Part shown: positions 1 to 48,759 of the stretch, in pieces
Position numbering within the stretch: position 1 is the first letter of the stretch
How the letters are laid out: every line of letters starts with the position of its first letter
DNA from: Zootoca vivipara
Taxonomy: Eukaryota
Length of the DNA: 64,000 bases
Direction of reading: 5' to 3'
Assembly (NCBI RefSeq): GCF_963506605.1
Contig: NC_083284.1
Span: 39,866,001 to 39,930,000, forward strand
Made by a program: the position numbers and the translations under genes
Notes under the pieces: generated by a model
What the model was told of the DNA's origin: nothing
Databases searched by the model: none
Seen by the model: only the letters and a program-made list of their open reading frames with translations

Positions 1-264
1 ATATTGTGCCAATATTAACTTTTTTGCAGGTGAGTTTATATACTTAAAATGGCGTTTTAAAGTTGTTAAAGGTTTGAAAAGTTTTAAGTGCTGTCTTTTT
101 GCTATGTTAATGTAGCAAGATGTACATCAGTGTAATGTAATCCATGTGATTCAGTTTCACTATCTTACGTTCAGCGTGTTCTTGTGTGAGCTAGGTAATG
201 TGGCCATGTGATGGAAATACTCTTAATTAGATACAGTATAAATAAAACATTCTAAATTGGTTTT

Positions 265-621
265 GGGGGACGCAGGTGGCACTGTGGGTTAAACCACAGA
301 GCCTAGAGCTTGCCAATCAGAAGGTTGGCGGTTCGAATCCCTGTGATGGGGTGAGCTCCTGTTGCTCGGTCCCAGCTCCTGCCAACCTAGCAGTTCGAAA
401 GCACGTCAAAGTGCAAGTAGATAAATAGGTACCGCTACAGTGGGAAGGTAAACAGCATTTTCGTGTGCTGCTCTGGTTCGCCAGGAGCGGCTTTGTCATG
501 CTGACCACATGACCTGGAAGCTGTACGCCGGCTCCCTCGGCCAATAATGCGAGATGAGCACCGCAACCCCAGAGTCGGTCACGACTGGACCTAATGGTCA
601 GGGGTCCCTTTACCTTGACCT
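265..621 (+). mobile_element. Sauria SINE, full length
   Basis: tRNA-like head with B box ggttcgaatcc, typical body, (ACCTTT)-type tail. 12-bp TSD taaattggtttt at 253-264 and 622-633. Confidence 0.92.
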
Positions 622-2535
622 TAAATTGGTTTTAGTATTGAAATGATTCCTGTAGTGGACAGGTCCATTGCTTTTAGTGGGTCTACTCTTGAGTATAGCT
701 AAGGGTTGGAATCCTAACCTCACATGTCTGAATGTAAGCCCCATTGAATTCAGTGAATTCATAACTTACTTCAAAAAAGACATGGCTAGGATTGTAGCCT
801 TAGTTGGATAGTGCCTTTAGTATTTAGACCTAGAGATGCTCTAGGTCTCTAGAGTTTAGTTGTAAGTAGGCACTGAAGGCATCAGCAGTCAGTCTTCCTG
901 TTCCCCTCTATAACTTTCCTACAGAGTTACTGTTTGTTCAGCATTCAGTTTTGGCAGGGAAATAGGAAAACTTTGGTTTAGGGGAGGTTTTTTAATCAGG
1001 AAAAGTGGGAGCATGCAAATATTAAACAAGAAAGTATAGTACGCAGCATAGTCTTCTGCAACTCCCAAAATATTATTCTTGTTTAGGGATCTAATCGTTC
1101 TGGAACAGGAGCCTTAATAGCACTAGTCAGGGCTTGATTGATGAGGATTGTAAATTGTGGCATAAAGGAATACTTCTTTCTTTCTTTTCCACCTTCCTAT
1201 AACATTTTCCTGTTGTGCTGTGTAATGCTAAAAGATTTGAGTGGACTATCATCAACAAACATGATCAATTTGCTGTGTATCAGAGTGGTAGAGATGAAGA
1301 CTCTGCATTTTTAAAGGAGATGACCTAATTCATATCTCCCAGGCTTAAACATGAATTGGAACATAATTTTGCAGTACAGTTTCTGGTTCATAATGTCCCA
1401 GCATGTGTTTAAAAATGCATTTTAGGATAGAAAGTTTAGGAATATGTACATTGAGATAAAATTCATACTTAAATATCAATATTTGTATGGACTTCTTTTT
1501 TAAATCAGATTAATGTGGAGATAGGACTGACCATACTTAAGAGTAAATGAATGTAAAATTGACCCAGGTCACATGGACTGATCTATCCATCGCTAAAAAG
1601 CAGAGGGGGAGGTTTCTGGAGAGGGAAAGAAAAAGAGTAGTAGTTCTGCTCTTCCTCCACCTGAAGCCTCCCTGTATAGTTTGGAGAAGAGCTTTATTTT
1701 AACCTCATGACAATCTTCTCTTTGACTTTAATCCTCCTAATTAATCCCAATTATAGAACGTTGAGAACTGTTACAAGATCACCCAGAACCATTTCCCTTT
1801 TTTTTCTAATAACACTGAACATTCTGTATCTCAACTGCCTTCAGTATTCTATAGGTCCTGGAGATTAAGGATTAGGTTCCTCTGGGGGCTTCCTCCCTTA
1901 CAACTAAATGCATTTCTGCAAACCTAAACAATCCCTTGCTATGAAGAAAGTACTGTCCATTTTTTAGATTTCCCCATTTCAGTTCCAAACAGATACTGTA
2001 GTCATGAAGCTATGCAGGTTTGATTGTCGTGTGACCGCTGATGTGTATGCAGGTTTTGGCACCGGAAAGGGAGCAGGGGCAGGGTTAGGGTTAAATGTGC
2101 ATAAATTGTAAATTACCTGTATCTAAAATATTGTGGTGGTTATCTAATACTGAAAAAGGTTATCAGGTGCTGGTATACAGCATTTTGACCTTGAGTTTCT
2201 TGTGTTAGTCTCAGCATTTTGATCTGTAGGTAGAACTAATAGTAATTTGTTTTTAGATTGCTTGGGAACATTTGTATTTTTTAGTTAGTACGGTAGTTCT
2301 AGTTTAGCTGAGGGAGCCCTTAACTATTCTCTTGTTGTTCTGTCCCTTGTGTTATGAAAAAGAGTAGAAGTAATTTACATTTCATGATATTTGCTAGTTA
2401 ACGAAAAGTCTACTGAATTTGGATACATATAGTTGGAAAGGTTTGTAAATATCTTGAAGGAACTTCCTTAAAGCACATAATTACTTAGTTAGTTAGAAGA
2501 ACTCAATGCATGCTCAACTTATTTCACTTTCAGGT

Positions 2536-2613
2536 ATGTCAGAAAACAGCAAGAATCCAGAAACTGTTGATGAACTTCACCAGGCTCCAGAAGAACTCCA
2601 GTCTGACTCTGAG
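2536..2613 (+). CDS. ARFIP1: Putative upstream alternative coding exon of ARFIP1 (exon 2534-2613; MSENSKNPETVDELHQAPEELQSDSE)
   Basis: Acceptor ttatttcactttcag ends at 2533, ATG at 2536, 26 open codons, donor GAG|gtgatt at 2614. Splices in frame (phase 0) to GAT TGT TCA ATG at 7092. Confidence 0.65.
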
Positions 2614-3835
2614 GTGATTGGGTGATACAAGTGGTTTAGCTATTTAAAATCAACCAATCCAGTAACAGGCTCAGACTGGGGGGGAAATTGAACCAATCTC
2701 TGTTTTAATTGTTCTTGATTATAACAGAATATTATTTGTCAAATTCAGAATATGATTAACTGAAAACAAATTAATGTTTACATTTGATTTTGTATTGCCC
2801 CATTAAACAGCAAAGTATTCTGTCAGAATGAGGATTTTTATAGATAACCTTGCAAGTGTTTTTGTTGTCCCTCAGCCTCATTTTTGTCCCCACAGGTTTT
2901 TTGGTAGTTGGGGCCACCTGGTGCTTTTTCAGGAAAGACACACATGACAGACCTCTGTGAACATATTGATCCAGATTCTTGTGTGTTTATAGATAAATAA
3001 TAATAAGATAGAATCACAGATGCTAGATGGTTTGATAAGTCTTTCATCACTATACCCTGGTACATCAGATCTCATAATAATCCCCCTCCCCCCTATGCCC
3101 ACTGCTGTTCTTTGGCAAAATCTCGCTGAAAAGCATGCACTTGGCCAGGTAGAAAACAGGAGAGATAACATACCAATCTTGGATGTTTGCATCCTCCTAA
3201 TATGGATCTTTGGCTACCAGTTATTTTGAGATTGAAAACGTTTCCTAGTCTCATCCCGAATTTGAGAGACTGTTAGTTTCAGCTTTTGTTGTAAGGGCAC
3301 AGCTTCCCCTTTTCGGGTAAGTAACTTATTTGGTGCTTGAGTAACTTCTTGCAAAGTGTCCTATTAAGATGTGGAAAACAAGAAAATGGCCAAATCCTGC
3401 TCTTAAGTCTGTCCTTGAACAGCTACAACTGGTACAGAATGCTCCAGGCCACTTTCAGGTGATTATTATATCCAGTTGTTGCTGCATCAGTTGTGCTGGT
3501 TGTATCCTAGGATAAGGGCAGAGCCTTATTGGTTGTGTACTATGGCAAGCTCTCCATAGTGCAGTCCACCAGAGCTTACACCTGCATCTTTTAGAACAGT
3601 TGTGGGAAGTTCTGTTTTTCTGTAAGGGGCCATACTCCCACTTGGTGCTGATCTCTTGGCAGCTGCATGTCAGTAGTGGGCAGGGACATTTTCTTTCTGG
3701 AATGACTCAATCAAGAGAAACACAAACATCAGGGGAAGGTGGTTGCAACTACCAGAGTCTCTAATGAATTGCTTTTTAACTTGTAAACTGCTTCACATGA
3801 TGGTTGACTGGGAACATTGGAGGAAGAGTCTATAC

Positions 3836-3971
3836 CAGGCATCCCCAAACTTCAGCCCTCCAGATGTTTTGGACTACAATTTCCATCTTCCCCGACCACT
3901 GGTCCTGTTAGCTAGGGATCATGGGAGTTGTAGGCCAAAACATCTGGAGGGCCGCAGTTTGGGGATGCCTG
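3836..3971. mobile_element. 136-bp palindromic hAT MITE
   Basis: TIRs caggcatccccaaact / agtttggggatgcctg. 8-bp TSD gtctatac. Confidence 0.9.
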
Positions 3972-5423
3972 GTCTATACATTGTAAAGAACCCTGTGAGT
4001 AGTGGCCACTCGGTGTTGGGAGTACAGGCTTGGCTTTGTTTTATCTCAAAATGCAGCTTGTCCCCATAGGAAGGAAGTGTAGCCATTCATTTAGGTGGGA
4101 AAAATGGACACCACTAGGTCAGCGGCAAAGCATGTCTCTGGTGAGTGCCCAAGGTGAGAAGGGAGAGAAGTCGGCCTGGCTGAATGTGGAGCACAAAAAT
4201 ATTCCATGCTGCTTTCAGTCTAGCAGGGGTTCGGTCCATCAAAGTACGACATTATGCATGGTCAGCCAGTGAACTTCATGACTGAGTGGGGATTGGAATC
4301 CTGGTCTCCTTGGTCCTAAAGCGACTTGCTAACCACTACACTACATAAGTGTGTTTGGGATTGAAGCCAGTTCCATTGGACTCAGTGGGGCTTACTTCTG
4401 AATAGACATGTGCTGGCTGCAAATGAAAGATGATGATGATGATGATAAAGATAGATATAATAAAGTTGTATACTGCTCTATACCTGCATGTCTCAGGGCA
4501 GTTCACAGGATAAAATTACAATATAAAAACACAACAAAACCCCCTTTCCAGCCAGTAGAGAAACAAAGTGAGATCTGATAGGAAGGGTAGGAAACTCATT
4601 CCTTCTTTCAGAAGTTCACTCAGCTTTCATGCTCACTGCCGAGGAAGATAAACCCCTTCCTCTGCAGCCATCTCAGAAACTACCAAAGGAGGGGCAGAGC
4701 AATTTGTCTTCCTTAAGCTCACCTGGCATCCCTCACAGCACATGTGTTGCAGACCAGATTAAAAGTATGTGGAGGGGGATGAAGAGACTGCAGGCTACAT
4801 AGGAATGTGCCATCGGTAAGTTTTTATATTGAGTCAGACTTCAGTACAATTTGGTGGTGTCTCCCTTTGGCTTTGAGAAATCAGGGAACACAACCCTATA
4901 TAAGAAAGACTTGTGATATAAAAGTATTTAAAATAATCATAGCTGGTTAAATTTTGACCTGACATGTGATTTCGGGCATTTTGTGTTTAGGCTTCTTAAA
5001 TTTTAGAACATGGTGCTATTGTGCTGAATTGTATAGCTGTAGGCTCAAAGACTACTTGTAACTCCAGAGTCGTATAATACATTGTAGATTTTATAGCGTG
5101 TACTAAAGTTTTATGAAGTGTCTTTTAATTTGTATTGAGAAACTTTTTATTGATTTTTTTTTTGCATAGAGCAATGCTTTTGATTACATCATGGGAAAAG
5201 TGTTACACCTACGGATAGTGATGCAATAATACTTTATTCCCTAGCATGAACATAGGATTGCATGTTGTTGGCAGGTGCTGTCTGTTTTATCCTTACAACA
5301 ATCCTGTGAATTAGATTAGGCTGAGAGACTATGACTGGCCCAAGGTCATGTAGAGAGCTTCAAAGCCAACTGGGGATTTGAAACCAACTGCAGTGGGTAA
5401 GGATTTTGTTAGCATATACTGTA

Positions 5424-5622
5424 CAATGGTACCTCGGGTTACGTACCTGATTCGTTCCGGGGTCTAGTACGTAACCCGAAAAATACGTAACCCAAACAAC
5501 TGCAAAAGCGCACGTCTGCACATGCGCGCACAGTGAACCCGAAAGTAAACGCTTCCGGGTCCACCGAGTATGTAACTCGGAAAGTACGCAACCCGAAAAG
5601 TATGTAACCCGAGGTACGACTG
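5424..5622. mobile_element. Tc1/mariner-type MITE
   Basis: TIRs caatggtacctcgggttac / gtaacccgaggtacgactg. TA TSD. Internal gtaacccgaa repeats. Confidence 0.85.
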
Positions 5623-6020
5623 TACTATGAAATCATGGTTCAGCATCAAGTAAACAGACTAGTAGAGGCAACAGAGGGGAGTGCCTTGGGAACTATTAAG
5701 TAGCATACATCAAACCATAGTTTGGTTAAAACTATGGTTTAATGTGATGCGCAAACCATGCCATTGCTTTAAGAACTGAATGCTACATTTAATTGATGCG
5801 ACCTGATCTGTGGCAAGGCGGGTCTGCTTGGATGACTATTGCAATATGTCATAAATTGTAATTTACAGTTTACCCTTACCAGGCTTAACTAATCCAGCTA
5901 GTGTCTTAGCACTTTCAGCACTGGTCACTCTGCATCGTGTACACTGTGGTGACTTGATTGGTTCAGGCTTTTGCCACATAGTCATGTGGACTCTTCGTTG
6001 GGTCTTTCCACAATCTAATA

Positions 6021-6156
6021 CAGGCATCCCCAAACTTCGGCCCTCCAGATGTTTTGGACTACAGTTCCCATCTTCCTCGACCACTGGTCCTGTTAGCTAG
6101 GGATCGTGGGAGTTGTAGGCCAAAACATCTGGAGGGCCGCAGTTTGGGGATGCCTG
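6021..6156. mobile_element. 136-bp palindromic hAT MITE (same family as 3836)
   Basis: Same TIRs. 8-bp TSD atctaata. Confidence 0.9.
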
Positions 6157-7100
6157 ATCTAATAAAACCCAGAAGATGCAGAAAGATACACTAGCCATGG
6201 GGCATATGCCATTTTGCAAAGATGAGCTAAAGTTATAGATAATAGCTATGTAGTGTTTTCATATTACCTTACACGTGTGCATTAGCCTTTTGATCTGCGT
6301 TCAATACCTTATAAAAACAGATGCCATAGTTACATGAGTTTTGACTAATAAATTTGCAGGTGTTGTGTGAAAGAGGAAACAATTTGCCTGTAAACTATTC
6401 AGCTGTTTACAGTATCAAAATTGTACATCTGCTCAGATTAAATATATAACCTATTATAATACTCCAGAGTTCATGTGGGAACACCATGGGAGGTATGTGA
6501 ACAGCCCTTGGTTGGTCTTAGTCTTATGTACACTTCTATAGAGAAACTGGGCAAACTAGAATTTTACCTGGCACTGTGACAATCAGGTGCTTGATCAGAT
6601 GCACTCACCAGCCTTACAGGCATTAATATTTGAGGCTGCACAACAAAAGGTAGATGACTCATAGGCGGTGCAGTTCTCTTAAGTCCTTCTGTGAGCATCT
6701 TTTGATAACTGAAAAGGGTTGCCATGTACCAAAGTAAATATAAATATTATGCTGTTTGGTAATGTTAAGCGTCAAGAATATTTAATGTACTGTGACTTGG
6801 AGGCAGAAATTACTGTGTGGGCCATCAATTGTTTTTATGTGTGTCTAGCACTGGGGTGGGAGCAGACTGACCTGAACAAAGGGTACTTGATCTACTACTT
6901 GCTTTTTGTTTAGGAGACTGAATAATTTAATAAGCTATGTTTCATGGGATCAGTGTGTTAGGATCTGCAAATATCCTCTTTGTGGTTCAGTGAAATGTGG
7001 TAGTTTAGTGAAATAGCTAAACATTTAATATTAATATCATTTTTATAACACTCAACATATAACACTCAACATATTTCTCTTCAAACTATAGGATTGTTCA

Positions 7101-7193
7101 ATGGCTGAAGAATCTCCAAAAAATTCAGCAGCAGAGATTTCTGTGACAAGTAATGGAGAACTTGAAGATACACATGAGCACAACTATAACAGG
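7101..7193 (+). CDS. ARFIP1: ARFIP1 exon carrying the mammalian-equivalent start (exon starts 7092; MAEESPKNSAAEISVTSNGELEDTHEHNYNR)
   Basis: Translation matches the recalled arfaptin-1 N-terminus (MAQESPKNSAAEIPVTSNGE). Acceptor ctatag at 7091, donor AGG|gtatga at 7194. Confidence 0.95.
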
Positions 7194-9459
7194 GTATGAT
7201 GCATAACTAAGCAGTTTAACAATATGTATAATAGCAATGGTTTTTAGTGTTTGAGTTTAATATATTTTCTCACCTAGTGGCTCAATAATTTTCTTGGGGA
7301 ATGTTACTTTTTGAATGATGAATTCGCACATATTTAGATCAGTTCAGAGTGGGGTTTTGCTATTGCTGTTAGTGTTTTTTTAAAAACTATTTTTGCTTTA
7401 AAAATGATTTTTGCTTAAAAAAATAGAATTTGTGGTACTGTAAGTTGCCTAATGGCATTTTGCATTGGGCAACACATGTATTAATATTAATTAATGATAA
7501 TCAATAATGATATAAGTATAGTGTAAATTAAATCCCTGAGCATTTCACCAATAATCAAATTATTGGTAAAATCAAATGCCTGGAGCAAGCAAATTATAGG
7601 AGGAAAGTATTGCCTAGATTAGTCTAATGTTCTCCTGCTTGGAGAAGGCTTGCCAGCCTTTTGTCTAGAGATGACTACTGTATAGGTTTTATACTTTCAA
7701 ATCACAAGATATGTTGCAAATAACTCCATAAAAGTAATAAAACATAGAAGAGTAAGATGCTGTAATGGTTTGATTTCTTGCAGTTAAAGTTATTTGTAGA
7801 TTTCATTTAATATTTTCTAGAGTATAATTTGTCCTGATTGTTGGGAATAAGGAAAGTCCAATATGCAGGTGAATAAATCAGATAATCTGAGAACGTATTA
7901 GACTGCTAGACTATTCAAGTCTTACTCCAACTTTAGTTGTATTTTGAAACATTAGCTTTCTGGGACTTAAAAAATACTTCATTTCTTCTATCAAGTTGTG
8001 GTGACTAGGAATTTTGCTTAGGTAAGTAGGGCTTGTTAATACAGGCAGGATGAGAATATGTGCCTGCAAGTACATGAGGCACAAGGCTTCCCAACCTCAA
8101 GCCACAAAGGGATGGGGAGGAGAGCAAGAGCTACATGCCTCAGCCACCACCCAACCATAAACATCTCCCTTCCAGCACCAGACTCACGGGACCAGCATGT
8201 TTTGCAAGCAAAGTAGGAATGTGCTGCCACCTCCCTCCAGCAGCCCGTTGGTTATGATTGCTATTTGAAATAGCATTCCATTGATACTAACTGATGGGAT
8301 CATGATGTTGTGTCAGTTTGAACTTGAGGATTCTGTCTTAACTGCTTTGTGAATCAGACAATTAATGTAGCTGCAGTGATTTGAGAGAACAGGAGGAAGA
8401 AGAATTCTAAGTATTGCTTTCTTTGCTGAGAGTGATAGGGGAGGTGTGGGAGCAAGTGGTGGTGGGATAACTGTAAATGGCAGGATAGCAGAGTGTAGTG
8501 GCAGTCCTAGATGTTTGCTCAGATGTAAGCCCCCATTGACTTCAGTGTAACTCCCATGTAAGTGAGTATGGAGTTGCAGCCTGAATTCTGAAGGTTTGTT
8601 ATTGATGCGAAGGATGCAAAAAGGTTTGTCTAGGTGGCCATGGAGAGGCTGATCAAAGTAATAAGTGATGAAAATCAGTGCTGAGGGTGTATAAATCTTT
8701 TGCATATGTGTCCTTGTTTTGCATGCTTTCTTTGGAGTTAATTATTTTTAACTTTCTTAGAATGTTTTCTGTGTTACTCCTTTTTGCAAAGAGCACCTTT
8801 TTCTGGCTGCAGGAGACCTACAAATATGGTGTGTGTTGGTTATTAGGGATTATCTTCTGGACATGTAAAACTATCATGCTCCCGTTAAAATTATCCATAA
8901 GCAGGCTTTGTTGGCATCCATTGTTGGCTTATTTACAAGGCTGACATTGTTAAGTGAAATATTCTTGCCAGCTGAAATGCCCCTATTCTTTGAGTGTTTT
9001 TAAATACGGATTACTATTGTAAAATAAACACTGCATGAATAAAATGAAATTGTAACATACTTTTGTGTCCACTAGGGGCTGCTCTGGTATAGGCTGTGTG
9101 GTTTGAGGGATAACCTCTTTCAGACTTGAAAAAAATCATATATTTTATACCTGGCTGGTTGGCTGTGCCCACAAAATGTTTGTAGAATCATCTGCTGCCT
9201 CTGTAAAAGTAGGAGAGCATTTTCAACAACTATTGAGGGAGATCAGATCTATTAATTTTCAGAGGGGAAGGAATGTACCAATATGAGAGGATGTGGCAGA
9301 GCGTTTACCAGTTTATTTAAATATTTTAAAAAGCTTTGCTACCACTTCATGTCAGTGGAGCTGCAATTTGCAGCCTAGCAGAGTTGCAATATGCTGCTAC
9401 AGAATGGATCTATGGAAATAATGGGGGCAGCCCTTCCCATTGTGTCATTCTGTGTAGGA

Positions 9460-24715: not shown

Positions 24716-26978
24716 GTAAGGAACTGCATTACTTCCTAATTTGCTATATACTTGAAATTCAACTTTGCATTATCAACTATATATTAGATCATGCAGTCTA
24801 TTGAATTTGATTATCATTGTCTCTTTTCTAAACTATTTAAACTTCTGGCAGGTAAGTACTAGAGTAGATTTGAGTAAGAGCATTAAATCAGATTCTTTTT
24901 CTATTCTTAACTCCTATTTGTTTTTGTTTTCTTGTTTGCGCATAGCAGGGCACCTTAAAATTATTTCAGTGTCATAATTTCAACAAGGGGTTGATAATGT
25001 ACCTGACTATTCATGAGGACCCTTGGAGCCCTTGAAGACAGATAAAATCAGGGCTCAACTGTTTATAAAAGTTCACCACTGTAAAGGGAGGAGTGGAGAT
25101 GTCATCTAACTTTGTATGCTTACTTGCTTCAGTTTTTGGAGGAAAGCTCGGAACATGAACTGAATGTTTCTGTTTCTGACATTAGGGTATACTTGGAAAC
25201 CAAACGCTGTAATTTTGGCTGGTTGGTCAGTGTTTGCTGGCCAATATCGTTGTGTTCCATTTGCAGTACTACCATTAGTAGACCTCTGTTTCCTGACCAA
25301 ATATATCATTTTGGCTAAATATGTGGACTGTAACAGCTATAGCTATTCTTGTTAACATATAAGTAGTGTTGATTGCTGTCAGAATTGGAGTACAATGAAC
25401 TTCTATACAAAAAGGGGCCGAGACACTTTTTTTCTCTTATTTGACAAGTAGCTGCGTTGGGCAAAGGCAAACCTCCCAAAAGATTGTTTCATGTGTAATA
25501 GCCCAGTGATTAAAAGTGCTAGTTTGAAGCAGTAGGACAACTCTATAATGAGTCACTATCTCACTATCTGACTGGTTAATAGTTCTTTTTGCACCATGTT
25601 AAGCAGCAATCTGGTACCTACCACATTGAAAGTACATATATATACTTCTAAGACAGTTCCATATTTATACCTGTTGTGTTGGCTCCTTACAGGGAAATGA
25701 GTGGCAGAAGCTGTGTGCAAGCTGTGACTGATGTGCGTGGGTTGAAAGGAGGGGAAGGTGGAGACTTCATCCTATGGACTGAATGTGGTTCTGTAATATT
25801 TGTCAGATAGTCAGTTTACTTGAAATACTGCAGGTTTCCCCTTTGCATCATTTTCATAAATTTGCTAAGGATAGCAATTTGAGGGTCAATAATTCTTAGG
25901 TTGATTGTCTTTGAATTCTGCCTTAATGACTTCATTAGCTATAGACACCCTAAGGGGAAGGAGGTTTGGCAGCCATTCAGATGTTAAGATAAATTGATAT
26001 CTTTGCTCTCTTCACAAAAAAAAGAAAGCTGTGCTGTCAATGTGCAGTGATAAGTGTCTGTAAGATGTCAGAAACTCTTTTGACAGTTAGTAGCACTACC
26101 TGTTATTCTAGCCTAGTCTATGTTTGCACAGATTGCACCTTTTTAAATGTAACAACAATATCCACTCTTGTATAGATCTCTACACATTTTGAGTAGCAGA
26201 ATATTCTGAAATGTCACCCCCACATCTGGGGTAAATAGTTTAGCAATGAAGCAATCTGTGGCAGTGATGGAAGGTCCTACTGGGATCCGCATGCTTCTGT
26301 TTGCGCACTAGTGGTTCCTTAAGTGCCTCATATAGTATTTATTCACTGTGGTGAACAGCAAATTCTGGTAAGCTCCCCTTGGTTTTGAGCCACATGCAGA
26401 CAAAAGTCAGAGGAATTTATGGCACCCAAATTAGGGTGTGTGTCATTTTCTCATGGAAATCAGTCTTCTTGATTTTGTCTGTTTGTAACCATGAAGCACT
26501 ATTTATATCTGTGGATTAGTTTTGGACATAGCAGTCCCCTCTTCCTTCTCTTCCATACACAAAAGACAAATATCTAAAATTTCTTCTGCTTTAGACCATG
26601 CATGGAGAATCTCCAGCCTGTGGGCATAGTTTGACCTGGCATGGATCCCAGTTTGGCTGTTTCCCCCAAAATACACCCTCCTGCACCACACCTGACATCA
26701 TGTGAGGTTGGTAGAAATGTAGCAGCCAAGGAACAATTGGGAACCTTAAAGTCCTTTCGGTGATTCCTTGGCAAGGAATGTTCGCTGTTGATGCCAATCA
26801 TTTGATCAGCAGTAACAGCATACAGAAAGCTAGATTTCAGGGGACAGGATTTTAGCCTTCTCCCGGCTTTCCTCAGTGACATACCTGCTGTTTGAGATTC
26901 AAAGCTAATGATTCAAAGTTGTGGCTAAGAAGAAGCCTTTAAATATTTGATACTGAAAGATAGAGGAATATAGGAATA

Positions 26979-27256
26979 CAGTGGTACCTCGGTTTATGAA
27001 CACAATTGGTTCCGGAAGTCTGTTCATCAACTGAAGTGTTCATAAACTGAAGCGAACTTTCCTATTGAAAGTAATGGAAAGTGGATTAATCTGTTCCAGA
27101 CAGTCCGCGAAGTACTTAAACTGAAGCGTTCATAAACTGAAGCGAACTTTCCCATTGAATGTAATGGAAAATGGATTAATCCGTTCCAGATGGGTCCGTG
27201 GCGTTCGTAAACCGAAAATTCGTAAACCGAGGTGTTCATAAATCGAGGTTCCACTG
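26979..27256. mobile_element. Tc1/mariner-type MITE
   Basis: TIRs cagtggtacctcggtttatgaac / gttcataaatcgaggttccactg. TA TSD. Internal duplication of about 90 bp. Confidence 0.88.
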
Positions 27257-27638
27257 TATAAATAATTGCCTGAAAATAATTTTGCAGGCCTCTGGATTGC
27301 AGTGAAATCCACTTCTTCATGGGAAGATTTGAGGGAACATAATTGTTTTGCAATATCCTGTTTTTGAACTGTGTTGATCTTAGAAGGGTGTGTGGGAGCC
27401 ATGGGACCTATAATTTTCTCCCTTAAGTTGCTGAGTTCTATACCATATACTCCTTTAAAGCACCTGTGTCTCCAATAAATAAATGTAAAGTGTTAAAACT
27501 TCAGGACAAGGAAACTTCCAGAAGATCTGTCATCTTAAATAACTATATGTGGCATGGCTCACAGATTTGAGGTTACTAGTTTGAGGTTACTGCATTAAGT
27601 TAAAAAATGCATTTAAAAGCCTTTACCGTCTTCTAATG

Positions 27639-27992
27639 ATGCGGGTGGCACTGTGGGTTAAACCACAGAGTCTAGGGCTTGCCGATCACAAGGTCAGCAG
27701 TTCGAAGCCCCACGACAGGGTGAGCTCCTGTTGCTCGGTCCCAGCTCCTGCCCACCTAGCAGTTCGAAAGCATGTCAAAGTGCAAGTAGATAAATAGGTA
27801 CTGCTCCGGCGGGAAGGTAAACAGCGTTTCCGTGCGCTGCTCTGGTTCGCCAGAAGTGGCTTAGTCATGCTGGCCACATGACCCAGAAGCTGTACGTCGG
27901 CTCCCTCAGCCAATAAAGCAAGATGAGCGCCACGACCCCAGAGTCGTCCACGACTGGACCCAATGGTCAGGGGTCCCTTTACCTTTTACCTT
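27639..27992 (+). mobile_element. Sauria SINE
   Basis: Same consensus as 265-621. TSD taatgatg. Confidence 0.92.
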
Positions 27993-28405
27993 TAATGATG
28001 GCATTAGTAAAAGATAAAGCTACAGTTATAGTAACATTCATAAAAATGTGCTCTGTTCCATACATTCTCAACAGTTTTGAATATTTTGAACACGAGCTAC
28101 CGGTAGTTTTATAGATGTGTGTTTAGCATTCAAATAGTAAATGAAAAAAGCATACATTTTTCCTTGTTGCCACTTCCCTTTTTATAGAAAGTATTCAGAT
28201 ATGATGGCTTGTATCCTATGCTTACGCTACAGAACTTACAGTTTTGCTCCTTCCCTGCACCCCCCCCAATCAGTTCTGGGGGGGCCTCCAACGTTTTGAA
28301 TATGATTTTGGGAGCGCTCAGAAGGCTGGAGGGGACAGTATAGGAAATTTTACTGTCTACCTACTCACATTTTCAGGTACACTTCTAGGAGGACTGTATC
28401 ATGTA

Positions 28406-28765
28406 AAAAGGTAAAGGACCCCTGACAGTTAAGCCCAGTCGTGACCGACTCTGGGGTTGCAGCGCTCATCTCTCTTTACTGGCCGAGGAAGCCAACGTTT
28501 GTTCACAGTTTCTCCGGGTCATGTGACCAGCATGACTAAGCCGCTTCTGGCAAAACCAGAGCAGCGCACGGAAACGCTGTTTACCTTCCCGCCAGAGCGG
28601 TACCTATTTATCTACTTACACTTTGACGTGCTCTCAAACTGCTGGGTTGGTAGGAGCTGGGACCAAGCAACGGGAGCTCACCCCGTGGCGGGGATTTGAA
28701 CTGCCGATCTTCCGATCGGCAAGCCCAAGGCTCAGTGGTTTACACCACAGCACCACCCGCATCCC
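28406..28765 (-). mobile_element. Sauria SINE
   Basis: Reverse complement of the consensus. TSD tatcatgta / tatcacgta. Confidence 0.92.
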
Positions 28766-29814
28766 TTATCACGTACATTTTCTGAATTTGTATTCAGCCT
28801 GAAGTGTATGGGTTGAATGCAGATTTTCCCCTCCGTTAATGGAAGGGCTCCTTCTTTTATGGAGGCAACTGATATCCAGTGAAGGTTTCCTGCTGGAGGA
28901 GCAGAGTGGATAGACAATTTTGTCAATTTCTTCTGAACCACTTCCCACATTATTCTGCAAAGAGTCCCTGCCCCATTCCCCAGTCTTTCAGAGCAGCTTT
29001 TCAGGGACTGCAAGAGGAAGGAATTGGAATTGGTGGAATTGGCATAAGCAAAAGTCTGTTGAGCAAATGTCTAGATCCAATGTCTAGAAGTTTTGGTGGA
29101 AGGAAATAGGCCTATGAAAGCATTGGGGACTGGAGGTTAAGACAGTATGTTCAAAGAGAAGCAGAAATATTGGAGCAAGTTGAATTGGTACAGATTGGTA
29201 ATACGGTAGTACCCTTCATATTTCATTGTCATTCAGCCAATTTTATGGAGACACCAGTTATTTGGCTGCCTGAATGTGACTCTCTCAAGTCCCTCTGGGC
29301 TTTGGGGGGTTTTATGCTTTCTTTTACTTCAGTGTTGCTCTGTTGGTATGTATGAGTACTGTATTGCCAAGACTATTATGGGCTGACATTAAAAGTATTG
29401 TGAATTATAAGCAAATACATAACTCAAAGCACTTGATTTTAAAATTCTGTTCAGTCAGTAAAATACAGCAATGTCTAGGTGTGCTGTCTGAGTATTGTAA
29501 TCAGATGTTATTTTATTTTAAGTGTGTCCATCCCACATAGTTCACCCACGAAGTCTGATTTCCCAGCCTTTAGTTGTAAACACCCAAAAGCCTGAATAGT
29601 AAAAGAAGTGAACAATGAACAAATAGTTGCCATACAGCACTGATGCCTTTTTTCACATTAGCTTTTATTTTGATGTGTTGCAAGATTGCCACTCTATATT
29701 TTTGCTTATTAAAGGGAAAGAATATCAACTGAGATCATATTTGTTTGCCTTGTAACAAAATTTGCTACAGGGAGTCCAAATGGTAACTGCTACAGTTAAC
29801 TGATGTAGCATATT

Positions 29815-29945
29815 TCCGGATGTTCTGGAGGGATAGTCATGTTTATCTGTTGTAGCAAAACTAAAGGGGAAAAAAAAAGACTTGTAACACTTCAAAAACT
29901 AACAAATTTATTATGGCATAAGTTGTGGATCAGATTCATGGAAGT
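29815..29945. mobile_element. Possible Penelope-like terminal repeat remnant
   Basis: gatagtcatgtttatctg...actaacaaatttattatggcataag resembles reptile Penelope termini as I recall them. Heavily diverged. Confidence 0.45.
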
Positions 29946-29971
29946 TTTTTTCCTAAGCTAGAAGGGGTGTG

Positions 29972-29973
<2 letters not shown>

Positions 29974-30040
<67 letters not shown>
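29974..30040. repeat. (GA)n microsatellite
   Basis: About 33 uninterrupted GA units. Confidence 0.97.
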
Positions 30041-30045
<5 letters not shown>

Positions 30046-30856
30046 GAGGAAACAAAAGTCAATTTTGTGGAGGTGAAATAATAACAGAAAAGGATGATAG
30101 TACTTCTAAATTTTAAGAATAGCTACTGATCAAAATTGAGAATGTATGTGAAAAGATAAAGCAGACGCCTCTCTTATAGGAGTCCACAACTTTTACTAGC
30201 CTCCTTCACAGGTTTCCATCCATTCAGTCATCTGCAGCATTTCTTCTGCTCTTCTGGACATATCTGAAAGAAATTCATTCTTACTGTTTTCACCTGAATG
30301 GTGTCCATTGTTCCTCCTGGACACTTAGATTGGAATATTGGCTGAATTCCAGCCAATTGTTTTCCAGCAATGTCCTGTGAAGAAAGTGGCAGTCCATTCC
30401 CCCTTTTTGTTATTTATAATTAAAAACCTCTCATCTATATGTAGCATCATTTGAATTATATGATCTGTGCTGTTGCCATTTTGAAGAATGTCTGCAGATG
30501 TAGAATGTTTGACCTACCTCCTGAAGACTGTAGCTTGTTGGAAGATACTTGACCTAATCCAGGGTGTGCCATGGCTTGAAATGATGGCTTAAGAATTTAG
30601 GATTTTTTAAACTCCGAAGCTTTAAAACTCTTGGCCTCCATACACTGCACTCTTGGCCTCCATACACTGCACTCGTTTCCCCTCTCATATCAACAGCTAC
30701 CGTACTAATTCCACATCTGCCCAGCTTTTTAACTGTGAAGAATGCTGGAAAACTATTTGTTTTTTCTTAAAACTGGAACACCTTGGGGTTAACCTCTGAT
30801 CTTCTTCAATATTCAGTTACATGCCTTTTCATCTTTAACTTTATCCTTGTCCACAG

Positions 30857-31015
30857 GTGAAAGTATTGCACAATCAGCTTGTTCTGTTCCACAATGCCAT
30901 TGCAGCATACTTTGCGGGGAATCAAAAACAGCTTGAACAGACTCTTAAACTATTCCATATCAAATTGAAAACGCCTGGAGTAGATTCTCCATCCTGGCTT
31001 GAAGATCAGCAATAG
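30857..31015 (+). CDS. ARFIP1: ARFIP1 last coding exon ([52 protein letters not shown])
   Basis: Acceptor ccacag, TAG at 31013-31015. Exons from 7101 sum to 1125 nt, i.e. 374 aa plus stop. Confidence 0.97.
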
Positions 31016-43499: not shown

Positions 43500-45500
43500 A
43501 GCCTGGTCGAACCGAGAGGCTGGGAGGAGGAAGAAAAGAACCTATATAGCCAGAATGTCCCCAGCACCAGCCTTTCGGCTTGACTCGGAGAACAGGCTGG
43601 TGGCGTTACCTGAAACAGCCCCGCCTAACGCCGCGCCTGCGCGGTGCCGCCTCCCTCCTCCGCCCGGGCCGCAGTGAGAGCGAAGGGAGGAGGCAGAGCA
43701 GGGGAGGCGGCGGCGGCGCAGCAGCTCTCTCTTCGCAAGAGTTGGACAGGCAGCGAGAAGGACTCCGGAGTCCGCGAAGGAGTCCCGGGTGGCCGAGGGC
43801 GGCGCGCACACAGCTGGGGGGGCTGGGTAAGTCGAGGCAGCAGCAGCACCCGCTCCGTCTGGGAAGGCGACGCGTAGACGGGTGGGGGGGGGCGGCAGTG
43901 GCTCTTTCCAGGGACAGGTTCTCTAGCCCTGTGCGGCTAAGCGGGGGCTTCCCACACCCGCTCCCCGCCCCTTCGCTTCATCCCGGTAGGGGTGTCTCGG
44001 TGCGCATCTTCCATGGGACCACGGAGCTGCTTTCCTCGAAATTGCGACCTGGTAGCAATCCCGCCCCGCGCGACATCCTGGGCACTGCAATCTAGTAATC
44101 CGATCTGTAGGTGTCCAGGAGGAAATTAAAATCCGGGCACGGGGCCTTGGACGAGGGAGGACCCGGCTTTTTTTTTGGTCCTCTAGAATAACAGAAGCCG
44201 TGAAACCTCCCCTCCCCACGGCCCATTTAAAACCTATTCATCGCTGAGCCCCGGCAGAGGCTGCTGTAATTATGATTAGACGGCAGCAGGCTGGCTCTCC
44301 GGGGATCCTGGGCGCCCCCCGGGTGAATCTCCTTCCCAGATTTCTCCTCGCTCGCTCGGGGTCTGCTGGGTCCTCCTCGAGGGCAGCAGAAATGTTTGCT
44401 GGCGTTACGAGGAGGAGATCTGCGGCTTTCCGCCCGCCGGGTCGCGCGACTCCGCTGGCGAGCGTGAAAGGGGAGGGGAGGCTGAGCGGACCCTGCAAGG
44501 GCAGAGGAGCGCAGCAGCCTCGGCCTGGCTCTCCGGGCGTTGAAAGATAATTTTCTTTTTGCTGAAGTTGGAAGTCTGTAGCTGCTTCTCCCCCGCTCCA
44601 ATTAGTGTGAGGTGGAAGCGAAACAGGGAGGGAAGGAAGAAACCTCTCCCCCCCCCCCGCGCCCTCTCCACACTTTTAAAATACGCCGCGTATTGGTGAC
44701 CCTTTGATTGCAGCCGCCTCGGCCGCCTCTTGTCTCCTCAGGGCTGACCTAAGGCTGCCAAACGCGATGCTCTTATTGCCCTTTTCCTGGGAACCATAAA
44801 GTTGGACGCGGGGTGAGGCCGGGAGAGCGAGCGAGCGAGACGGCGCACGTGAGAGGAGGACTTGGCCGGCTGGCGGCGAGAGTTGGCGGTGGGAAGCTGC
44901 CGCTGGGTGTCCTTTCCCGGGGAGTCACCCTCCGCTCTGTCTCCCGCCGCGCATCCCCCCCCCCGCCCGGCCAGCCTCGCGCGCTTCCCTCGGGCTGTGA
45001 GGGGAGGAAAACGGCGGAGATCTGATTACAAAGCGCCGAGGCCACCTTGGAGCAGCCGCTGCCGCCGCCGCAAGGTGCCTGAGGAGCTCGTGTGGGGAGG
45101 GGGGACGACGAGGAGGACAGGGCCCTGGGGAGCGCGCCGGGAAAACAATAGGGCTGCGGAGAGGGCGAGGGGGGCGATTTTTCTTTCACACCCCGTCGAG
45201 GAAGGAGTGTGAGGAGAGGAGGAGGACGCCTCAGCCGCCGCCGCCCGCGGGGAAAGGAGCTCTGGCTACGGGAGAAGGAGGGCGAGCTAAGGAAACGCCA
45301 GTGTGGGAACTCCTGAGCCGGCGGGAGGCGGAGGTCTTGGGACCGCGCACGGGGCAGCGGGGGATTCGGGGCGTCTGCCGCCGCCTGGGCTGCTTTGGCG
45401 GCGGCCGAGGTCTCTTGGCTGCCGCGGCTCCCGAGGGGGCGGCAATCTGGTCTAGGCTGCCGCCTCGCCCCATCTGAAGAGAAGAGCTCTCCTCCAACTT
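43500..45500. promoter_or_regulatory. FHDC1: CpG island / FHDC1 promoter region (bipartite, about 43.55-44.1 kb and 44.3-45.5 kb)
   Basis: Very high GC and CpG density against an AT-rich background. GC boxes (ccccgcc at 43619), TATA-like ctatatag at about 43542, reverse CCAAT (attgg) at about 44692. Lies upstream of the first FHDC1 coding exon. Confidence 0.85.
43672..43826 (+). other. FHDC1: Putative non-coding first exon of FHDC1
   Basis: Strong donor CTGG|gtaagt at 43827 inside the CpG island. The start is guessed from an Inr-like CAGT. Confidence 0.55.
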
Positions 45501-45596
45501 GGTCTCTCTTGGCGGTGGGCTTGTTATTTTTAATTGGCCTGTTCTTTTCTTCTCCCCCCCTCCAGGATCCGCCCTGAAACAAAACAAGCAATTAAG

Positions 45597-45597
45597 A

Positions 45598-45643
<46 letters not shown>
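45597..45643. repeat. (AAT)n microsatellite at the CpG island edge
   Basis: Read directly from sequence. Confidence 0.95.
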
Positions 45644-45647
<4 letters not shown>

Positions 45648-46591
45648 GGCTGGGGAGGGTGATGATGAGGGAAGGGGCGTTTTACACTTTTGTTGCCGTT
45701 CATCCAAAAGTAGGGGCCAGGACTCGAGGAGGGAGAAGAGTCTGTCTCGGTTTTTGGTTTTTTTTGTTAAATCACACCACACTCCCTATAAAACACGGGC
45801 TAACAATGGAGTTTCCAATTTCAAGTGTTGCATCCAGGCAACGATTGTTAACCAAACCAGGAGCGGGGCAAACTTAGGTGAACCTTTTTCTTAATGATCA
45901 ACTAGTAGTCGCATTTTCATGCCCAGCCCCTCTTGGGTGGTCTTGGGTGGACAAGACAATTCTATTCTTCCGAGTTCATGCCCCCTCCACTTTTGCTTTT
46001 ATTAGCACGGAGGAGGTGCCTTTTAGCTGGTGAAGTGCAGGTTGCAAGTACTGTAAGCAAAAGAGAAATTAAAATTGTTTTTCAGATATTTAAGGGTGGG
46101 GTGTATTTTTTTCCTGTTGCAAAAACATGCTTTTTTACAACCTCCAGTAGCCTTAAATTGCATGTTGTGCTGCTAGCCAGAGGGACATTTGGGTTAATTG
46201 CTTGAGCTAGGACTATAATATTTCTTTTGGTCTGATTTATACAAAGTGTGTTGCTTTTAAGAGAACTCTTTTTTTATTCCAGAAGGTATCTTAAGGTTAA
46301 TTCAAGGTGCTGAAACCCCATCCTTTTAGTGGCTTACTGGTGGTAGCCCCAAAGAAAACTAGTGTGTCACTATATCTCAGCATCTTCTTTAAAGAGAGTT
46401 GTACATAGGCTTCTGGGGAGGATATTCTCTCCAACTTTGCAAATTCAATTTTGGAAAGCAACATTTGAGAAGAGGGTGCTCTGAGGTTACAGGTGCCTGC
46501 CAGTAGATGCCAGCAGCAAAATCACCAATAACATCCACACATCATTTTGCTTTCAGTAGTTGTGCTACCAGAAGTAATATTCACCTGGTTA

Positions 46592-47768
46592 CCGTGTTTC
46601 CCCTTTTTTAAGACGTAGTCAGAAAGTAAGCCATGGCAGCATTTTTTATCATTAGTGAAATCTAAGACACCCCCCGAAAATAAGACATACCTCCATGCGA
46701 GACCGCCAAGCGCCCCAGCCAGCCAGAGGGGCCTGGAACCGGCTGCTGTTGCTGCAGTGAACGCATGGAGCGCCCTGCAGCACCTGGCCTCTTTTTTTCT
46801 TTTCTTTTTTTTGGGCTGCCCGAGGCCTGCCGCCCCGCCACCGGAACCGGCGGCTGCAGAGCGGAGCGCTCCGAAACAGCGAGCGCTCGGAGCGCCCTGC
46901 AGCACCTGGCTTCTTCTTTTGCGGGGGGGGGGGGAGCTGCCCGAGGCCTGCCGCCCCGCCGCCGGAACCGGCGGCTGCAGAGCAGAGCGCTCCGAAGCGC
47001 CGAGCGCTCGGAGCGCCCTGCAGCGCCTGGCCTCTTCTTTTTTTGGGGGGGAGGAGCTGCCCGAGGCCTGCCGCCCCGCCGCCGAAACCGGCGGCTGCAG
47101 AGCAGAGCGCTCCGAAGCGCCGAGCGCTCGGAGCGCCCTGCAGCGCCTGGCCTCTTCTTTTTTTGGGGGGGAGGAGCTGCCCGAGGCCTGCCGCCCCGCC
47201 GCCGAAACCGGCGGCTGCAGAGCGGAGCACTCCGAAGCGCCGAGCGCTCGGAGCGCCCTGCAGCGCCTGGCCTCTTCTTTTTTTTTGGGGGGGAGGAGCT
47301 GCCCAAGGCCTGCCGCCCCGCCGCCGGAACCGGCGGCTGCAGAGCGGAGCACTCCGAAGCGCCGAGCGCTCGGAGCGCCCTGCAGCGCCTGGCCTCTTCT
47401 CTTTTTGTTTGGCTGCCCGAGGCCGGCGGCTGCAGAGCGGAGCGCTCCGAAGCGCCGAGCGCTCGGAGCCCCCTGCAGCGCCTGGCCTCTTCTTTTGGGG
47501 GGAGAGCTGCCCGAGGCCTGCCCCCCGCCGCCGGAACCAGCGGTCTGCAGCGCCGAGCGCCCGGAGCGCCCAGCAGCGCTGGGCGGAGCGCCGAGCCAGC
47601 AGCCTGCCGCCTCGGTGCCGCGCAGAGCGCCCAGCAGCACCCCGAGCCAGTGGCCTGGCCCTTCCGAGGAGGCCTTAAGGTACAAGGCATCCCCTGAAAA
47701 TAAGACACCGTCTGTTTTTTTGAGTAAAAAAAGTTATAAGACGGTGTCTTAAAAAGGGGGAAACACGG
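46592..47768. mobile_element. Young Tc1/mariner (pogo/Tigger-like) non-autonomous element carrying a GC-rich minisatellite
   Basis: 23-bp TIRs ccgtgtttccccttttttaagac / gtcttaaaaagggggaaacacgg (1 mismatch). TA on both sides. Subterminal gaaaataagac motifs. Confidence 0.88.
46768..47560. repeat. About 120-bp GC-rich tandem repeat, about 6.5 units
   Basis: Units start near 46768, 46890, 47011, 47131, 47251, 47373 and 47466. The central units are nearly identical. Confidence 0.95.
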
Positions 47769-48759
47769 TAGTACAATATTGTGGTTTTCAGCAATGAGAA
47801 ACTGAAAATTGCCAGCAATGGATTTGCTTCTGAGCAATGGAGTATTATGTGAATTGCTGGCAAGGAACAATTAGCATTAGCATTGCATGGAAAGATTCAG
47901 TGCTTTTCCATGGAAATAACATGGACTTTATTCCCAGTTTAAATGTATAGGATTGGGCTATATCTTTTAGTATGCTAAGCAAAACAGGCTTGTGTTCCTT
48001 TCTTTTTGGGAAGGAGTAGGATTCCAAGTGCCATTTATTGAGCTCCTGCTAATGCATAACAGTAGTTCTGGTTAGTTGCTCTCTTTACCCATTTTGTATG
48101 GATGATGTTATTGGGGTACTGAGTTGAAAGGCTGTGTTATATATGAAACTTAAGACATCACAGTTCTGATATGGAAGCATGTATTTTGACTTGAGTCTAT
48201 TCTGCACTCATTGCTTGTGGCAGGATCTCTGCCTCCTATGCTCGCTTTATATTGAATACAGCTGAATATTGCTGAGTAGACCTTTTATTTTATTTTACAG
48301 ATATTTTAATGGTAGCCTGTTTGTTTGGAAGAATATAAACAAATGGTGAAAAGGCAAATGTAGCTTATTTCTGGAGCAATCCCAATTTGTCTATGGATCC
48401 CTGGTGTTAATTACTATCAGACAGACCCAGACGAATGAACTATTTGTAATTTGTTGCTTAAACCTGGTGATGGTCTACTTGCTTTAGACTGGAATTCTGT
48501 TCTCTCTCATTAGTCTTGTCTCTATGAAATAATAAAGTATAAACTGGTCTTGCATATTCTAAGCAGCACCATTCCATTGCACAGTTGTCTTGTTCCTCTA
48601 GCACTTTTGGCATAATGTACTCAAAGGGATCTTTGCTGTGTACACAACATACATTTAAAGCAAATATTTTCCTTCAAAGAATGCAGGAATCTGTTGCCCC
48701 CTGCCCCCAAGCCACAGTTCCCAGGTTCCTCTGGGGAAAGTCATGTGCTTTAAATGTAT

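What the first reader, a model, noticed from the sequence alone, without database searches (positions are those of the whole stretch)
2519..2620. In-frame upstream exon adds a 29-aa acidic N-terminus to arfaptin-1, and its acceptor is also a donor
Seen: an 80-nt exon (2534-2613) with ATG at its third base encodes MSENSKNPETVDELHQAPEELQSDSE. It splices in frame through GAT TGT TCA (DCS) into the 7101 ATG, giving 403 aa instead of 374. The 7101 ATG has a pyrimidine at -3 (weak Kozak). The exon begins GTATGT, so splicing to it regenerates a 5' splice site (AG|GTATGT) stronger than its own GAG|GTGATT donor. Established: this architecture matches vertebrate RS-exons. Inference: competition between the two donors switches between long and short N-termini, and the long form is absent from the canonical mammalian protein as I recall it.
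Basis: partly seen in the sequence, partly recalled or inferred. Interest (0 to 1): 0.7.

Follow-up and report, generated by a model that had tools for sequence, protein, structure and literature searches.

The report
Ancient optional start exon of arfaptin-1
A short exon in this lizard's arfaptin-1 gene is spliced in or skipped and is predicted to add 29 acidic residues to the front of the protein; gene databases already predict the same extension in reptiles, birds and many mammals, and the proposed two-step (recursive) splicing switch remains untested.

Summary
The exon is real. Reads join exon 1 (3 kb upstream of the window, GC donor) to 2534 and 2613 to 7092, and one contig skips it. The 403-aa product equals RefSeq XP_034967940.1, so the isoform is already annotated. 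It is not lizard-specific: a Met-Ser extension of 27-29 aa stands in 181 of 245 proteins held, from squamates, turtles, crocodilians, birds, monotremes and many placentals. The true junction rebuilds AAG|GTATGT. That only makes it a 'putative RS-exon', a class holding 3.6% of human exons, 93.8% of them constitutive (PMC6224609). By U1 pairing it is at most modestly stronger than the exon's own donor, and use of the site could not be tested. Most likely this is an ordinary regulated cassette exon with a weak donor and a UGCAUG (RBFOX-type) motif 27 nt upstream. Leads: one run uses the 3' junction without the exon-1 junction (possible first-exon use), and the conserved end EExxSDSEE resembles furin's acidic sorting motif. 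No paper on this isoform turned up.

The parts
1..2533 (+). Downstream part of the GC-AG intron (5,503 nt) that comes from exon 1. Exon 1 itself lies outside the window, about 3 kb upstream in a CpG island (G000:C9:39862848-39863030 = L014 248-430); it has no ATG and ends in a GC donor, AAG|GCAAGT.
   Evidence: CpG island; joint L014 428->5932 with 3 ambiguous letters = GC..AG at +2, and contig X2 covering L014 248-431 and running on into exon 7092; no ATG. The 5' end is the contig's end, not a mapped start.
2502..2517 (+). Two CTCAA branch-point-like stretches (A at 2505 and 2516) flanking the UGCAUG motif
   Evidence: Read from the sequence; branch-point use is inference from a recalled yUnA consensus
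2507..2512 (+). TGCATG, RBFOX-type motif, 27 nt upstream of the acceptor; overlaps an in-frame ATG at 2506
   Evidence: the only 1 of 9 coding exons with the motif within 60 nt upstream; 13 copies in 31 kb. Six database models from lizard, python, three birds and a turtle begin M-H-A here.
2518..2533 (+). Polypyrimidine tract and AG acceptor
   Evidence: used by 11 reads in X18 and 4 in X17, 0 in X19
2534..2613 (+). Alternative 80-nt exon with start codon at 2536; codes residues 1-26 of the 29-aa extension; starts GTATGT
2614..2670 (+). Weak donor GAG|GTGATT and downstream intron that appears conserved to birds
   Evidence: 6 Watson-Crick + 2 G-U pairs to U1; a pigeon model reading through the donor gives SEVIG...NQPI, both present here (protein-level only)
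7092..7193 (+). Next exon: 9 nt (DCS in the long form, 5' UTR in the short form) then the canonical ATG at 7101
14582..31015 (+). Remaining coding exons of ARFIP1: 14582-14690, 15099-15194, 17666-17778, 20294-20515, 21885-22042, 24541-24715, 30857-31015 (stop)
   Evidence: Mapped with P0056; Arfaptin domain PF06456 hits

Best explanation
The exon at 2534-2613 is an alternatively spliced cassette of ARFIP1 that carries an in-frame start codon, is predicted to add 29 acidic residues to arfaptin-1, is likely inherited from the amniote ancestor, and is most likely switched by ordinary exon recognition rather than by recursive splicing. Shown: transcripts from the CpG-island exon 1 either splice GC donor -> 2534 and 2613 -> 7092, or skip to 7092; exon 1 has no ATG, so the first AUG is 2536 (G at -3, U at +4) when the exon is in and 7101 when it is out. 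Inferred: the exon's weak donor makes it marginal, and an RBFOX-family protein on the UGCAUG between the two branch-point candidates would block its acceptor in some tissues, as described for calcitonin exon 4. Inferred: the GTATGT start is largely a by-product of a common acceptor context plus Met-Ser. Inferred and weakest: the extension is a disordered tail whose conserved end (EExxS[DN]SEE) is a casein-kinase-2-type acidic cluster that tunes binding at the trans-Golgi network.
For: Inclusion joints: exon 1->2534 11 reads (X18), 4 (X17), 0 (X19); 2613->7092 19, 2, 15 reads and contig X1. Skipping: contig X2, depth 86.8; depth ratio of this exon to exon 7092 is 0.32, 0.22, 0.10. Share of exon-1 end depth joined to 2534 about 0.72, 0.53, 0 (rough), so use differs between samples. 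Coding constraint: 177 of 181 extensions are exactly 29 aa, all net acidic (-2 to -9), identity to the lizard 35-100% against 77-100% for the adjoining canonical N-terminus in 17 species compared. UGCAUG at -27, in 1 of 9 exons, background 0.04 per 100 nt; repression from upstream UGCAUG by blocking SF1 (PMC2777236, passages). Putative RS-exons are common and mostly constitutive (PMC6224609, passages).
Against: Mature-mRNA reads cannot tell direct skipping from recursive skipping, so the mechanism is not tested. The rebuilt site is a good donor (7 Watson-Crick pairs, top 4.4% of 1836 GT sites in the gene) and replaces a GC donor, which would favour a recursive route. X19 has 15 reads on the 3' joint and none on the exon-1 joint (Fisher p = 0.008 against X18; likeness cut-offs differed, 92 vs 98), which a pure cassette does not explain. 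No orthologous DNA could be had, so conservation of UGCAUG and of GT rests on predicted proteins. Tissues of the runs are not given. Translation of the extension is not shown. The sample of proteins was drawn with the extension as query and is biased toward it.
Confidence: 0.62

Rival explanations
1. Recursive switch: exon 1's GC donor always splices first to 2534; the joint AAG|GTATGT is then a canonical GT donor that competes with GAG|GTGATT, and exon-junction-complex occupancy decides long versus short N-terminus.
For: Junction shown and donor-like. In-register U1 pairing -6.8 vs -5.7. G at exon +1 implied in 34 of 35 upstream-extended models, and a pyrimidine at +2 in the 6 with Ser/Cys if the exon structure is the same. 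Ser2 holds in 95 of 96 29-aa extensions, the exception being a non-homologous horse exon. PMC6224609 reports physiological RS at some alternative exons.
Against: No direct signal: intronic depth is zero just after 2613 in the three raw runs, so intermediates are not seen either way. Sequence does not predict EJC sensitivity (PMC6224609). The intron is 10,061 nt and the exon is coding, unlike the cryptic stop-bearing RS-exons of long introns (PMC5126111). Met-Ser and acceptor context explain the bases. ARFIP1 is not named in that paper's text or its 5 supplementary files.
Confidence: 0.2
2. Hybrid exon: in some tissues a promoter inside intron 1 makes this the first exon, so the long protein is set by promoter choice.
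For: X19: 15 downstream and 0 upstream junction reads with exon 1 well covered, the skew used to call hybrid exons (10.1101/2021.05.27.446076, section 5). Six database models in six sauropsids start at the ATG 28 nt upstream of the acceptor.
Against: No depth at 2300-2470 in any of the 4 runs; X19 has little depth over the exon at likeness 98; small counts, two different cut-offs; another upstream exon or a back-splice would look alike; X17 and X18 use exon 1.
Confidence: 0.13
3. Neutral 5' UTR cassette whose open frame is incidental and barely translated.
For: Extension diverges faster than the adjoining N-terminus; AlphaFold gives residues 1-154 pLDDT under 50 (weak model); not seen in the anthropoid, marsupial and most muroid proteins held.
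Against: Met-Ser, frame and 29-aa length kept from lizards to placentals, with near-invariant E19, E20, S23, S25, E26; it is the first AUG when included, with G at -3.
Confidence: 0.05

Closest known systems
RefSeq predicted arfaptin-1 long isoforms (XP_034967940.1, 403 aa, Zootoca vivipara; 402-aa forms in cattle, pig, bats, lemur and others)
   Same: The window's nine-exon model equals XP_034967940.1 residue for residue; homologous extensions are annotated across amniotes.
   Different: These are automatic predictions; I found no paper that describes or tests them.
Human arfaptin-1a/1b (PMC4366199)
   Same: Same gene; the N-terminal region supports Golgi localisation, most critically residues 100-153.
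   Different: The published pair differs by the internal 32-aa exon (window 15099-15194), not by this exon; 1b is 373 aa, without the extension.
Annotated putative RS-exons (Blazquez 2018, PMC6224609)
   Same: The upstream junction rebuilds a donor-like site at the exon's first base.
   Different: Use of the site, EJC sensitivity and the MaxEntScan threshold were not testable; here the upstream donor is GC and the site overlaps the start codon.
Cryptic RS-exons of long introns (Sibley 2015, seen only through review PMC5126111)
   Same: YAG|GT junction with a competing downstream donor.
   Different: 10-kb intron, coding in-frame exon without a stop, often included.
RBFOX-repressed exons, e.g. 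calcitonin exon 4 (PMC2777236)
   Same: UGCAUG in the branch-point zone upstream of the acceptor (-27 here, -34 there).
   Different: One copy only in 2230-2920, none in the exon; binding untested.
Furin phosphoserine acidic cluster (QEECPSDSEEDEG; PMC5584140)
   Same: EExxSDSE[ED] in 34 of 100 distinct extensions, E[ED]xxS[DN]SE in 71 of 100; both proteins act at the trans-Golgi network.
   Different: As a rule two, not four, acidic residues follow the second Ser; placentals mostly have SNSE; arfaptin-1 is a peripheral BAR protein, not transmembrane cargo.

Membership tests
Alternative cassette exon | Both flanking junctions are spliced | tested here: met
   Exon 1->2534: 11 and 4 reads in X18, X17 (0 in X19); 2613->7092: 19, 2, 15 reads
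Alternative cassette exon | A skipping junction exists | tested here: met
   Contig X2 runs from exon 1 into exon 7092; raw-read counts of this joint were not obtained, as the two exons lie 10,061 nt apart and were laid in separate calls
Putative RS-exon (Blazquez) | Preceding exon-exon junction rebuilds a GT 5' splice site | tested here: met
   AAG|GTATGT; 7 Watson-Crick pairs with the genome's own U1 5' end
Putative RS-exon (Blazquez) | MaxEntScan score of the rebuilt site above the species threshold (5.52 in human) | not testable with these tools
   No MaxEntScan; by recall this 9-mer scores well above 5.52, but no call gave a score
Functional RS-exon | Rebuilt site outcompetes the exon's own donor | tested here: inconclusive
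   -6.8 vs -5.7 in register, -6.8 vs -6.8 unconstrained
Functional RS-exon | Rebuilt site is used (lariats, saw-tooth coverage, spliceosome crosslink, EJC sensitivity) | not testable with these tools
   Raw runs have next to no intronic depth outside repeats
Cryptic RS-exon of long introns (Sibley) | Cryptic, stop-bearing exon in a very long intron, normally excluded | tested here: not met
   Coding, in frame, 10-kb intron, about half or more of exon-1 end depth in 2 of 3 runs
Hybrid first-internal exon | Excess of downstream over upstream junction reads | tested here: inconclusive
   X19 15 vs 0; X18 19 vs 11; X17 2 vs 4; cut-offs differ
RBFOX-repressed exon | UGCAUG in the upstream flank | tested here: met
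   2507-2512, -27
RBFOX-repressed exon | Motif conserved in orthologous DNA | tested here: inconclusive
   Only M-H-A in six predicted proteins (ATG CAY GCN); no orthologous DNA found
RBFOX-repressed exon | Binding and response to RBFOX loss | not testable with these tools
   No CLIP or knockdown data
Phosphoserine acidic cluster (furin type) | Two serines with acidic flanks fitting casein kinase 2 | tested here: met
   SxSE in 86 of 100, S-x-x-E at 23-26 in 91 of 100; sequence only; kinase consensus recalled
Phosphoserine acidic cluster (furin type) | Run of four acidic residues after the second Ser, in a transmembrane cargo tail | tested here: not met
   Two acidic residues then mostly neutral; furin EEDE from PMC5584140
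Phosphoserine acidic cluster (furin type) | Phosphorylation-dependent binding to AP mu subunits | not tested

The most novel reading that the evidence does not exclude
An amniote-wide recursive switch in which a GC first-intron donor is converted by splicing into a GT donor built from the start codon itself, so that one six-base element is acceptor edge, rebuilt donor and initiation site, and toggles a furin-like phospho-acidic module on arfaptin-1 that links this BAR protein to AP-1; overlooked because the human and rat isoforms studied lack it.
Probability: 0.08. Interest if true: 0.65.

Novelty: already known. Interest (0 to 1): 0.27.

Why it matters
As it stands this confirms an annotated but apparently unstudied isoform. 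Its value is modest: the arfaptin-1 work I read concerns human isoforms without this N-terminus, while many amniotes, livestock included, are predicted to make it, and it has kept its frame, length and an acidic serine motif across amniotes. If the rebuilt donor is used, it would be a compact natural model of recursive splicing controlling a protein's N-terminus; if the acidic motif binds AP-1, it would tie arfaptin-1 directly to clathrin sorting at the Golgi.

Tried and rejected
Run search: no RNA holder listed by index; raw RNA runs of the same species label were laid instead. Loose-end tables in both lays were filled by repeat reads, so raw counts of the skipping joint and of what precedes 2534 in X19 were not seen. 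Orthologous DNA: a metagenome scan with placental peptides gave 1 locus of 57 pattern matches (L017), which I first took for a mammal copy; it is GC-rich, lacks Met-Ser and splice sites and does not align, so it is a chance hit. The structure model is poor (mean pLDDT 51, 22 sequences); it fits disorder but is weak. PDB search found only arfaptin-2 BAR domains, residues 179-402. Shuffle test of EExxSDSE[ED]: 18 and 37 of 200,000, but the pattern was chosen after seeing it, so it is no test. The weak-Kozak argument was rejected as general. Minus strand near the exon: longest stop-free stretch 42 aa. Earlier scan findings: none. Sibley 2015 was not held. Rows outside the count of 181: horse P0200 (unrelated 29-aa exon), pigeon P0144/P0145 and sparrow P0170 (longer inserts), and the short or otherwise-extended forms; only 120 of 413 hits were listed, so amphibians, fish and human were not examined.

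Full report
Observation. The window is G000:C9:39866001-39930000 and holds an Arfaptin-domain gene. The exon 2534-2613 is 80 nt, begins GTATGT after a TTTCAG acceptor, has ATG at 2536 and ends GAG|GTGATT; it encodes the stated 26 residues. Nine exons mapped with P0056 give 403 aa identical to that protein, and 374 aa from the 7101 ATG. P0056 is RefSeq XP_034967940.1/XP_034967941.1, 'arfaptin-1 isoform X2', Zootoca vivipara; the top hit lies on a contig of the same length as G000 C9, so this is very likely the species. The isoform is therefore already annotated.

Splicing. On 2300-7400 the joint 2613->7092 (GT..AG) is read 2, 19 and 15 times in raw RNA runs X17, X18 and X19 (about 6% of each run read, all on the sense strand) and in a contig of another organism, X1. 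The three raw runs come from one study. Exon 1 lies in a CpG island about 3 kb upstream of the window. On L014 1-6200 the joint 428->5932, with three ambiguous letters, resolves to AAG|GCAAGT ... TTCAG|GTATGT, a GC-AG intron of 5,503 nt: 11 reads in X18, 4 in X17, 0 in X19. Contig X2 runs from exon 1 straight into exon 7092, so skipping exists. Depth of the exon relative to exon 7092 is 0.32, 0.22 and 0.10; the share of exon-1 end depth that joins 2534 is about 0.72, 0.53 and 0 (X17, X18, X19; rough, from binned depth, small counts). Exon 1 has no ATG, so the first AUG is 2536 (context GAAGGT ATG T) when the exon is in, and 7101 (TGTTCA ATG G) when it is out. GC-AG introns are about 0.8% of coding-gene junctions, enriched in first introns, and their genes are more prone to alternative splicing (PMC7242645, abstract).

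Conservation. Three homolog searches and three cluster look-ups left 245 proteins; 181 have a Met-Ser extension before the canonical Met, 177 of them exactly 29 aa, 100 distinct, all net acidic. They come from geckos, skinks, lacertids, iguanians, snakes, turtles, crocodilians, birds, platypus, echidna, afrotherians, armadillo, bats, carnivores, ungulates, whales, squirrels, colugo and lemur (names; sequences). In 17 species compared, identity to the lizard's 26 residues falls from 100% (Podarcis) to 35-38% (placentals), against 77-100% for the adjoining canonical N-terminus: relaxed, but with frame, length, M1-S2 and E19-E20-x-x-S23-x-S25-E26 kept. The extension was not in the 2 marsupial, 4 anthropoid or the rat, mouse, vole and hamster proteins held, though one muroid model (P0151) has it. 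Absence from annotation is weak evidence: an otter protein lacks it while other carnivores have it. Only 120 of 413 hits were listed, so human, amphibians and fish were not examined, and the sample is biased toward the extension. No orthologous DNA was obtained.

Is it recursive? The real junction rebuilds AAG|GTATGT. Against the genome's own U1 5' end it forms 7 Watson-Crick pairs, -6.8 kcal/mol; the exon's own donor forms 6 plus 2 G-U, -5.7 in register and -6.8 unconstrained; the GC donor of exon 1 gives -6.7. The proxy is crude (it ranks a good donor, CAT|GTAAGC, low), and MaxEntScan was not on hand. By the definition of Blazquez 2018 this is probably a putative RS-exon, but that class is 3.6% of human exons, 93.8% constitutive, and sequence did not separate EJC-sensitive from insensitive members (PMC6224609, passages); ARFIP1 is not named in its text or in 5 supplementary files. 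In this gene 3 of 9 junctions put GT after the joint, and the last gives AAG|GTGAAA at -5.0/-6.9. Four of the six bases are the start codon and the first base of Ser2. In favour of the recursive idea: the rebuilt site replaces a GC donor; 34 of 35 upstream-extended models imply G at +1, and 6 imply a pyrimidine at +2 if they share the exon structure (the exception is a Crotalus model with Asp). Intronic depth in the raw runs is nil after 2613, so neither saw-tooth coverage nor intermediates can be judged. It is not a Sibley-type cryptic RS-exon (review PMC5126111, passages; the original was not held).

A likelier control. TGCATG sits at 2507-2512, 27 nt before the acceptor and between two CTCAA stretches; it is the only such case among 9 exons, against 13 copies in 31 kb (noticed after the fact). 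Six predicted proteins from lizard, python, three birds and a turtle start M-H-A at this spot, which fits a conserved ATGCA(T/C)G. RBFOX proteins repress exons from upstream UGCAUG, and at -34 of calcitonin exon 4 they block SF1 at the branch point (PMC2777236, passages). A pigeon model that reads through the donor gives SEVIG...NQPI, as the lizard intron does, so the weak donor and its flank look conserved. I take ordinary regulated exon recognition as most likely; the RBFOX step is inferred.

Unexplained. X19 has 15 reads on the 3' joint and none on the exon-1 joint although exon 1 is covered about 31-fold at its end (Fisher p = 0.008 against X18; cut-offs 92 and 98). Such a skew marks hybrid first/internal exons (10.1101/2021.05.27.446076, abstract and section 5), and the M-H-A models need RNA upstream of the acceptor. 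But there is no depth at 2300-2470, and another upstream exon or a back-splice would look the same.

What the extension may do. The N-terminal region of human arfaptin-1 supports Golgi localisation, most of all residues 100-153 with S132 (PMC4366199, passages); the isoforms discussed there differ by the internal 32-aa exon. The extension's end resembles furin's QEECPSDSEEDEG, which is phosphorylated by casein kinase 2 and binds AP mu subunits (PMC5584140 and 10.1101/286633, passages): EExxSDSE[ED] in 34 of 100, E[ED]xxS[DN]SE in 71 of 100. It lacks furin's four acids after the second Ser, placentals mostly read SNSE, and arfaptin is no transmembrane cargo; this is a lead (about 1 in 5), not membership. 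The fold prediction leaves residues 1-154 at pLDDT under 50, mostly coil, in a poor model; solved relatives cover only the BAR domain.

Literature. Searches: ARFIP1+isoform+exon, arfaptin-1+amphipathic helix+N-terminal, ARFIP1+RBFOX+alternative splicing, ARFIP1+splicing, arfaptin-1+isoform; listings read (20 of 25, 8 of 10, 1 of 1, 30 of 50, 20 of 39), and ARFIP1 passages in PMC11465180, PMC9554796 and PMC11544703. None described this exon: one names 'exon 4', one has a primer in the HGFDST exon flanking the internal cassette, one does not say which isoform. The library lacks most subscription papers, and supplements other than those of PMC6224609 were not seen and may list the event.

Verdict. 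Real, conserved, alternatively spliced and already annotated; recursive mechanism possible (about 0.2) and untested. Interest 0.27.

Noticed in passing
L014 428-438 (G000:C9:39863030, upstream of the window): ARFIP1's first intron uses a GC donor, AAG|GCAAGT, for both the inclusion and the skipping joint.
   Followed up: partly
window 2506-2535: In-frame ATG upstream of the acceptor gives MHAQLISLSG; near-identical starts are predicted in python, three birds and a turtle. May reflect a conserved splicing element, a first-exon form, or both.
   Followed up: partly
window 15099-15194 and exon 20294-20515: The known internal 96-nt cassette (arfaptin-1a/1b) is here; some lacertid models (P0003, P0004, P0006) also lack 22 residues inside the BAR domain, at the end of exon 20294-20515, which suggests an internal alternative donor.
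   Followed up: no
L014 1-414: A few reads on the opposite strand at the CpG island (X17, X18) hint at divergent transcription from this promoter.
   Followed up: no
window 30857: The last exon's junction also rebuilds a donor-like site, AAG|GTGAAA.
   Followed up: no
window 3835-3975 and 6021-6160; about 270-620: Two copies of a ~140-nt abundant repeat, and a SINE-like repeat, draw hundreds to thousands of reads from elsewhere.
   Followed up: no
L004 6440-6930: GC-rich tandem repeat about 13 kb upstream of the window; not a promoter-like island.
   Followed up: no
window 43500-48000: A second, larger CpG island downstream of ARFIP1, probably the start of the next gene.
   Followed up: no
P0144, P0145, P0170: Pigeon and sparrow models carry longer inserts between this exon and the next (donor read-through in pigeon), showing further splice variation at this spot.
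   Followed up: partly
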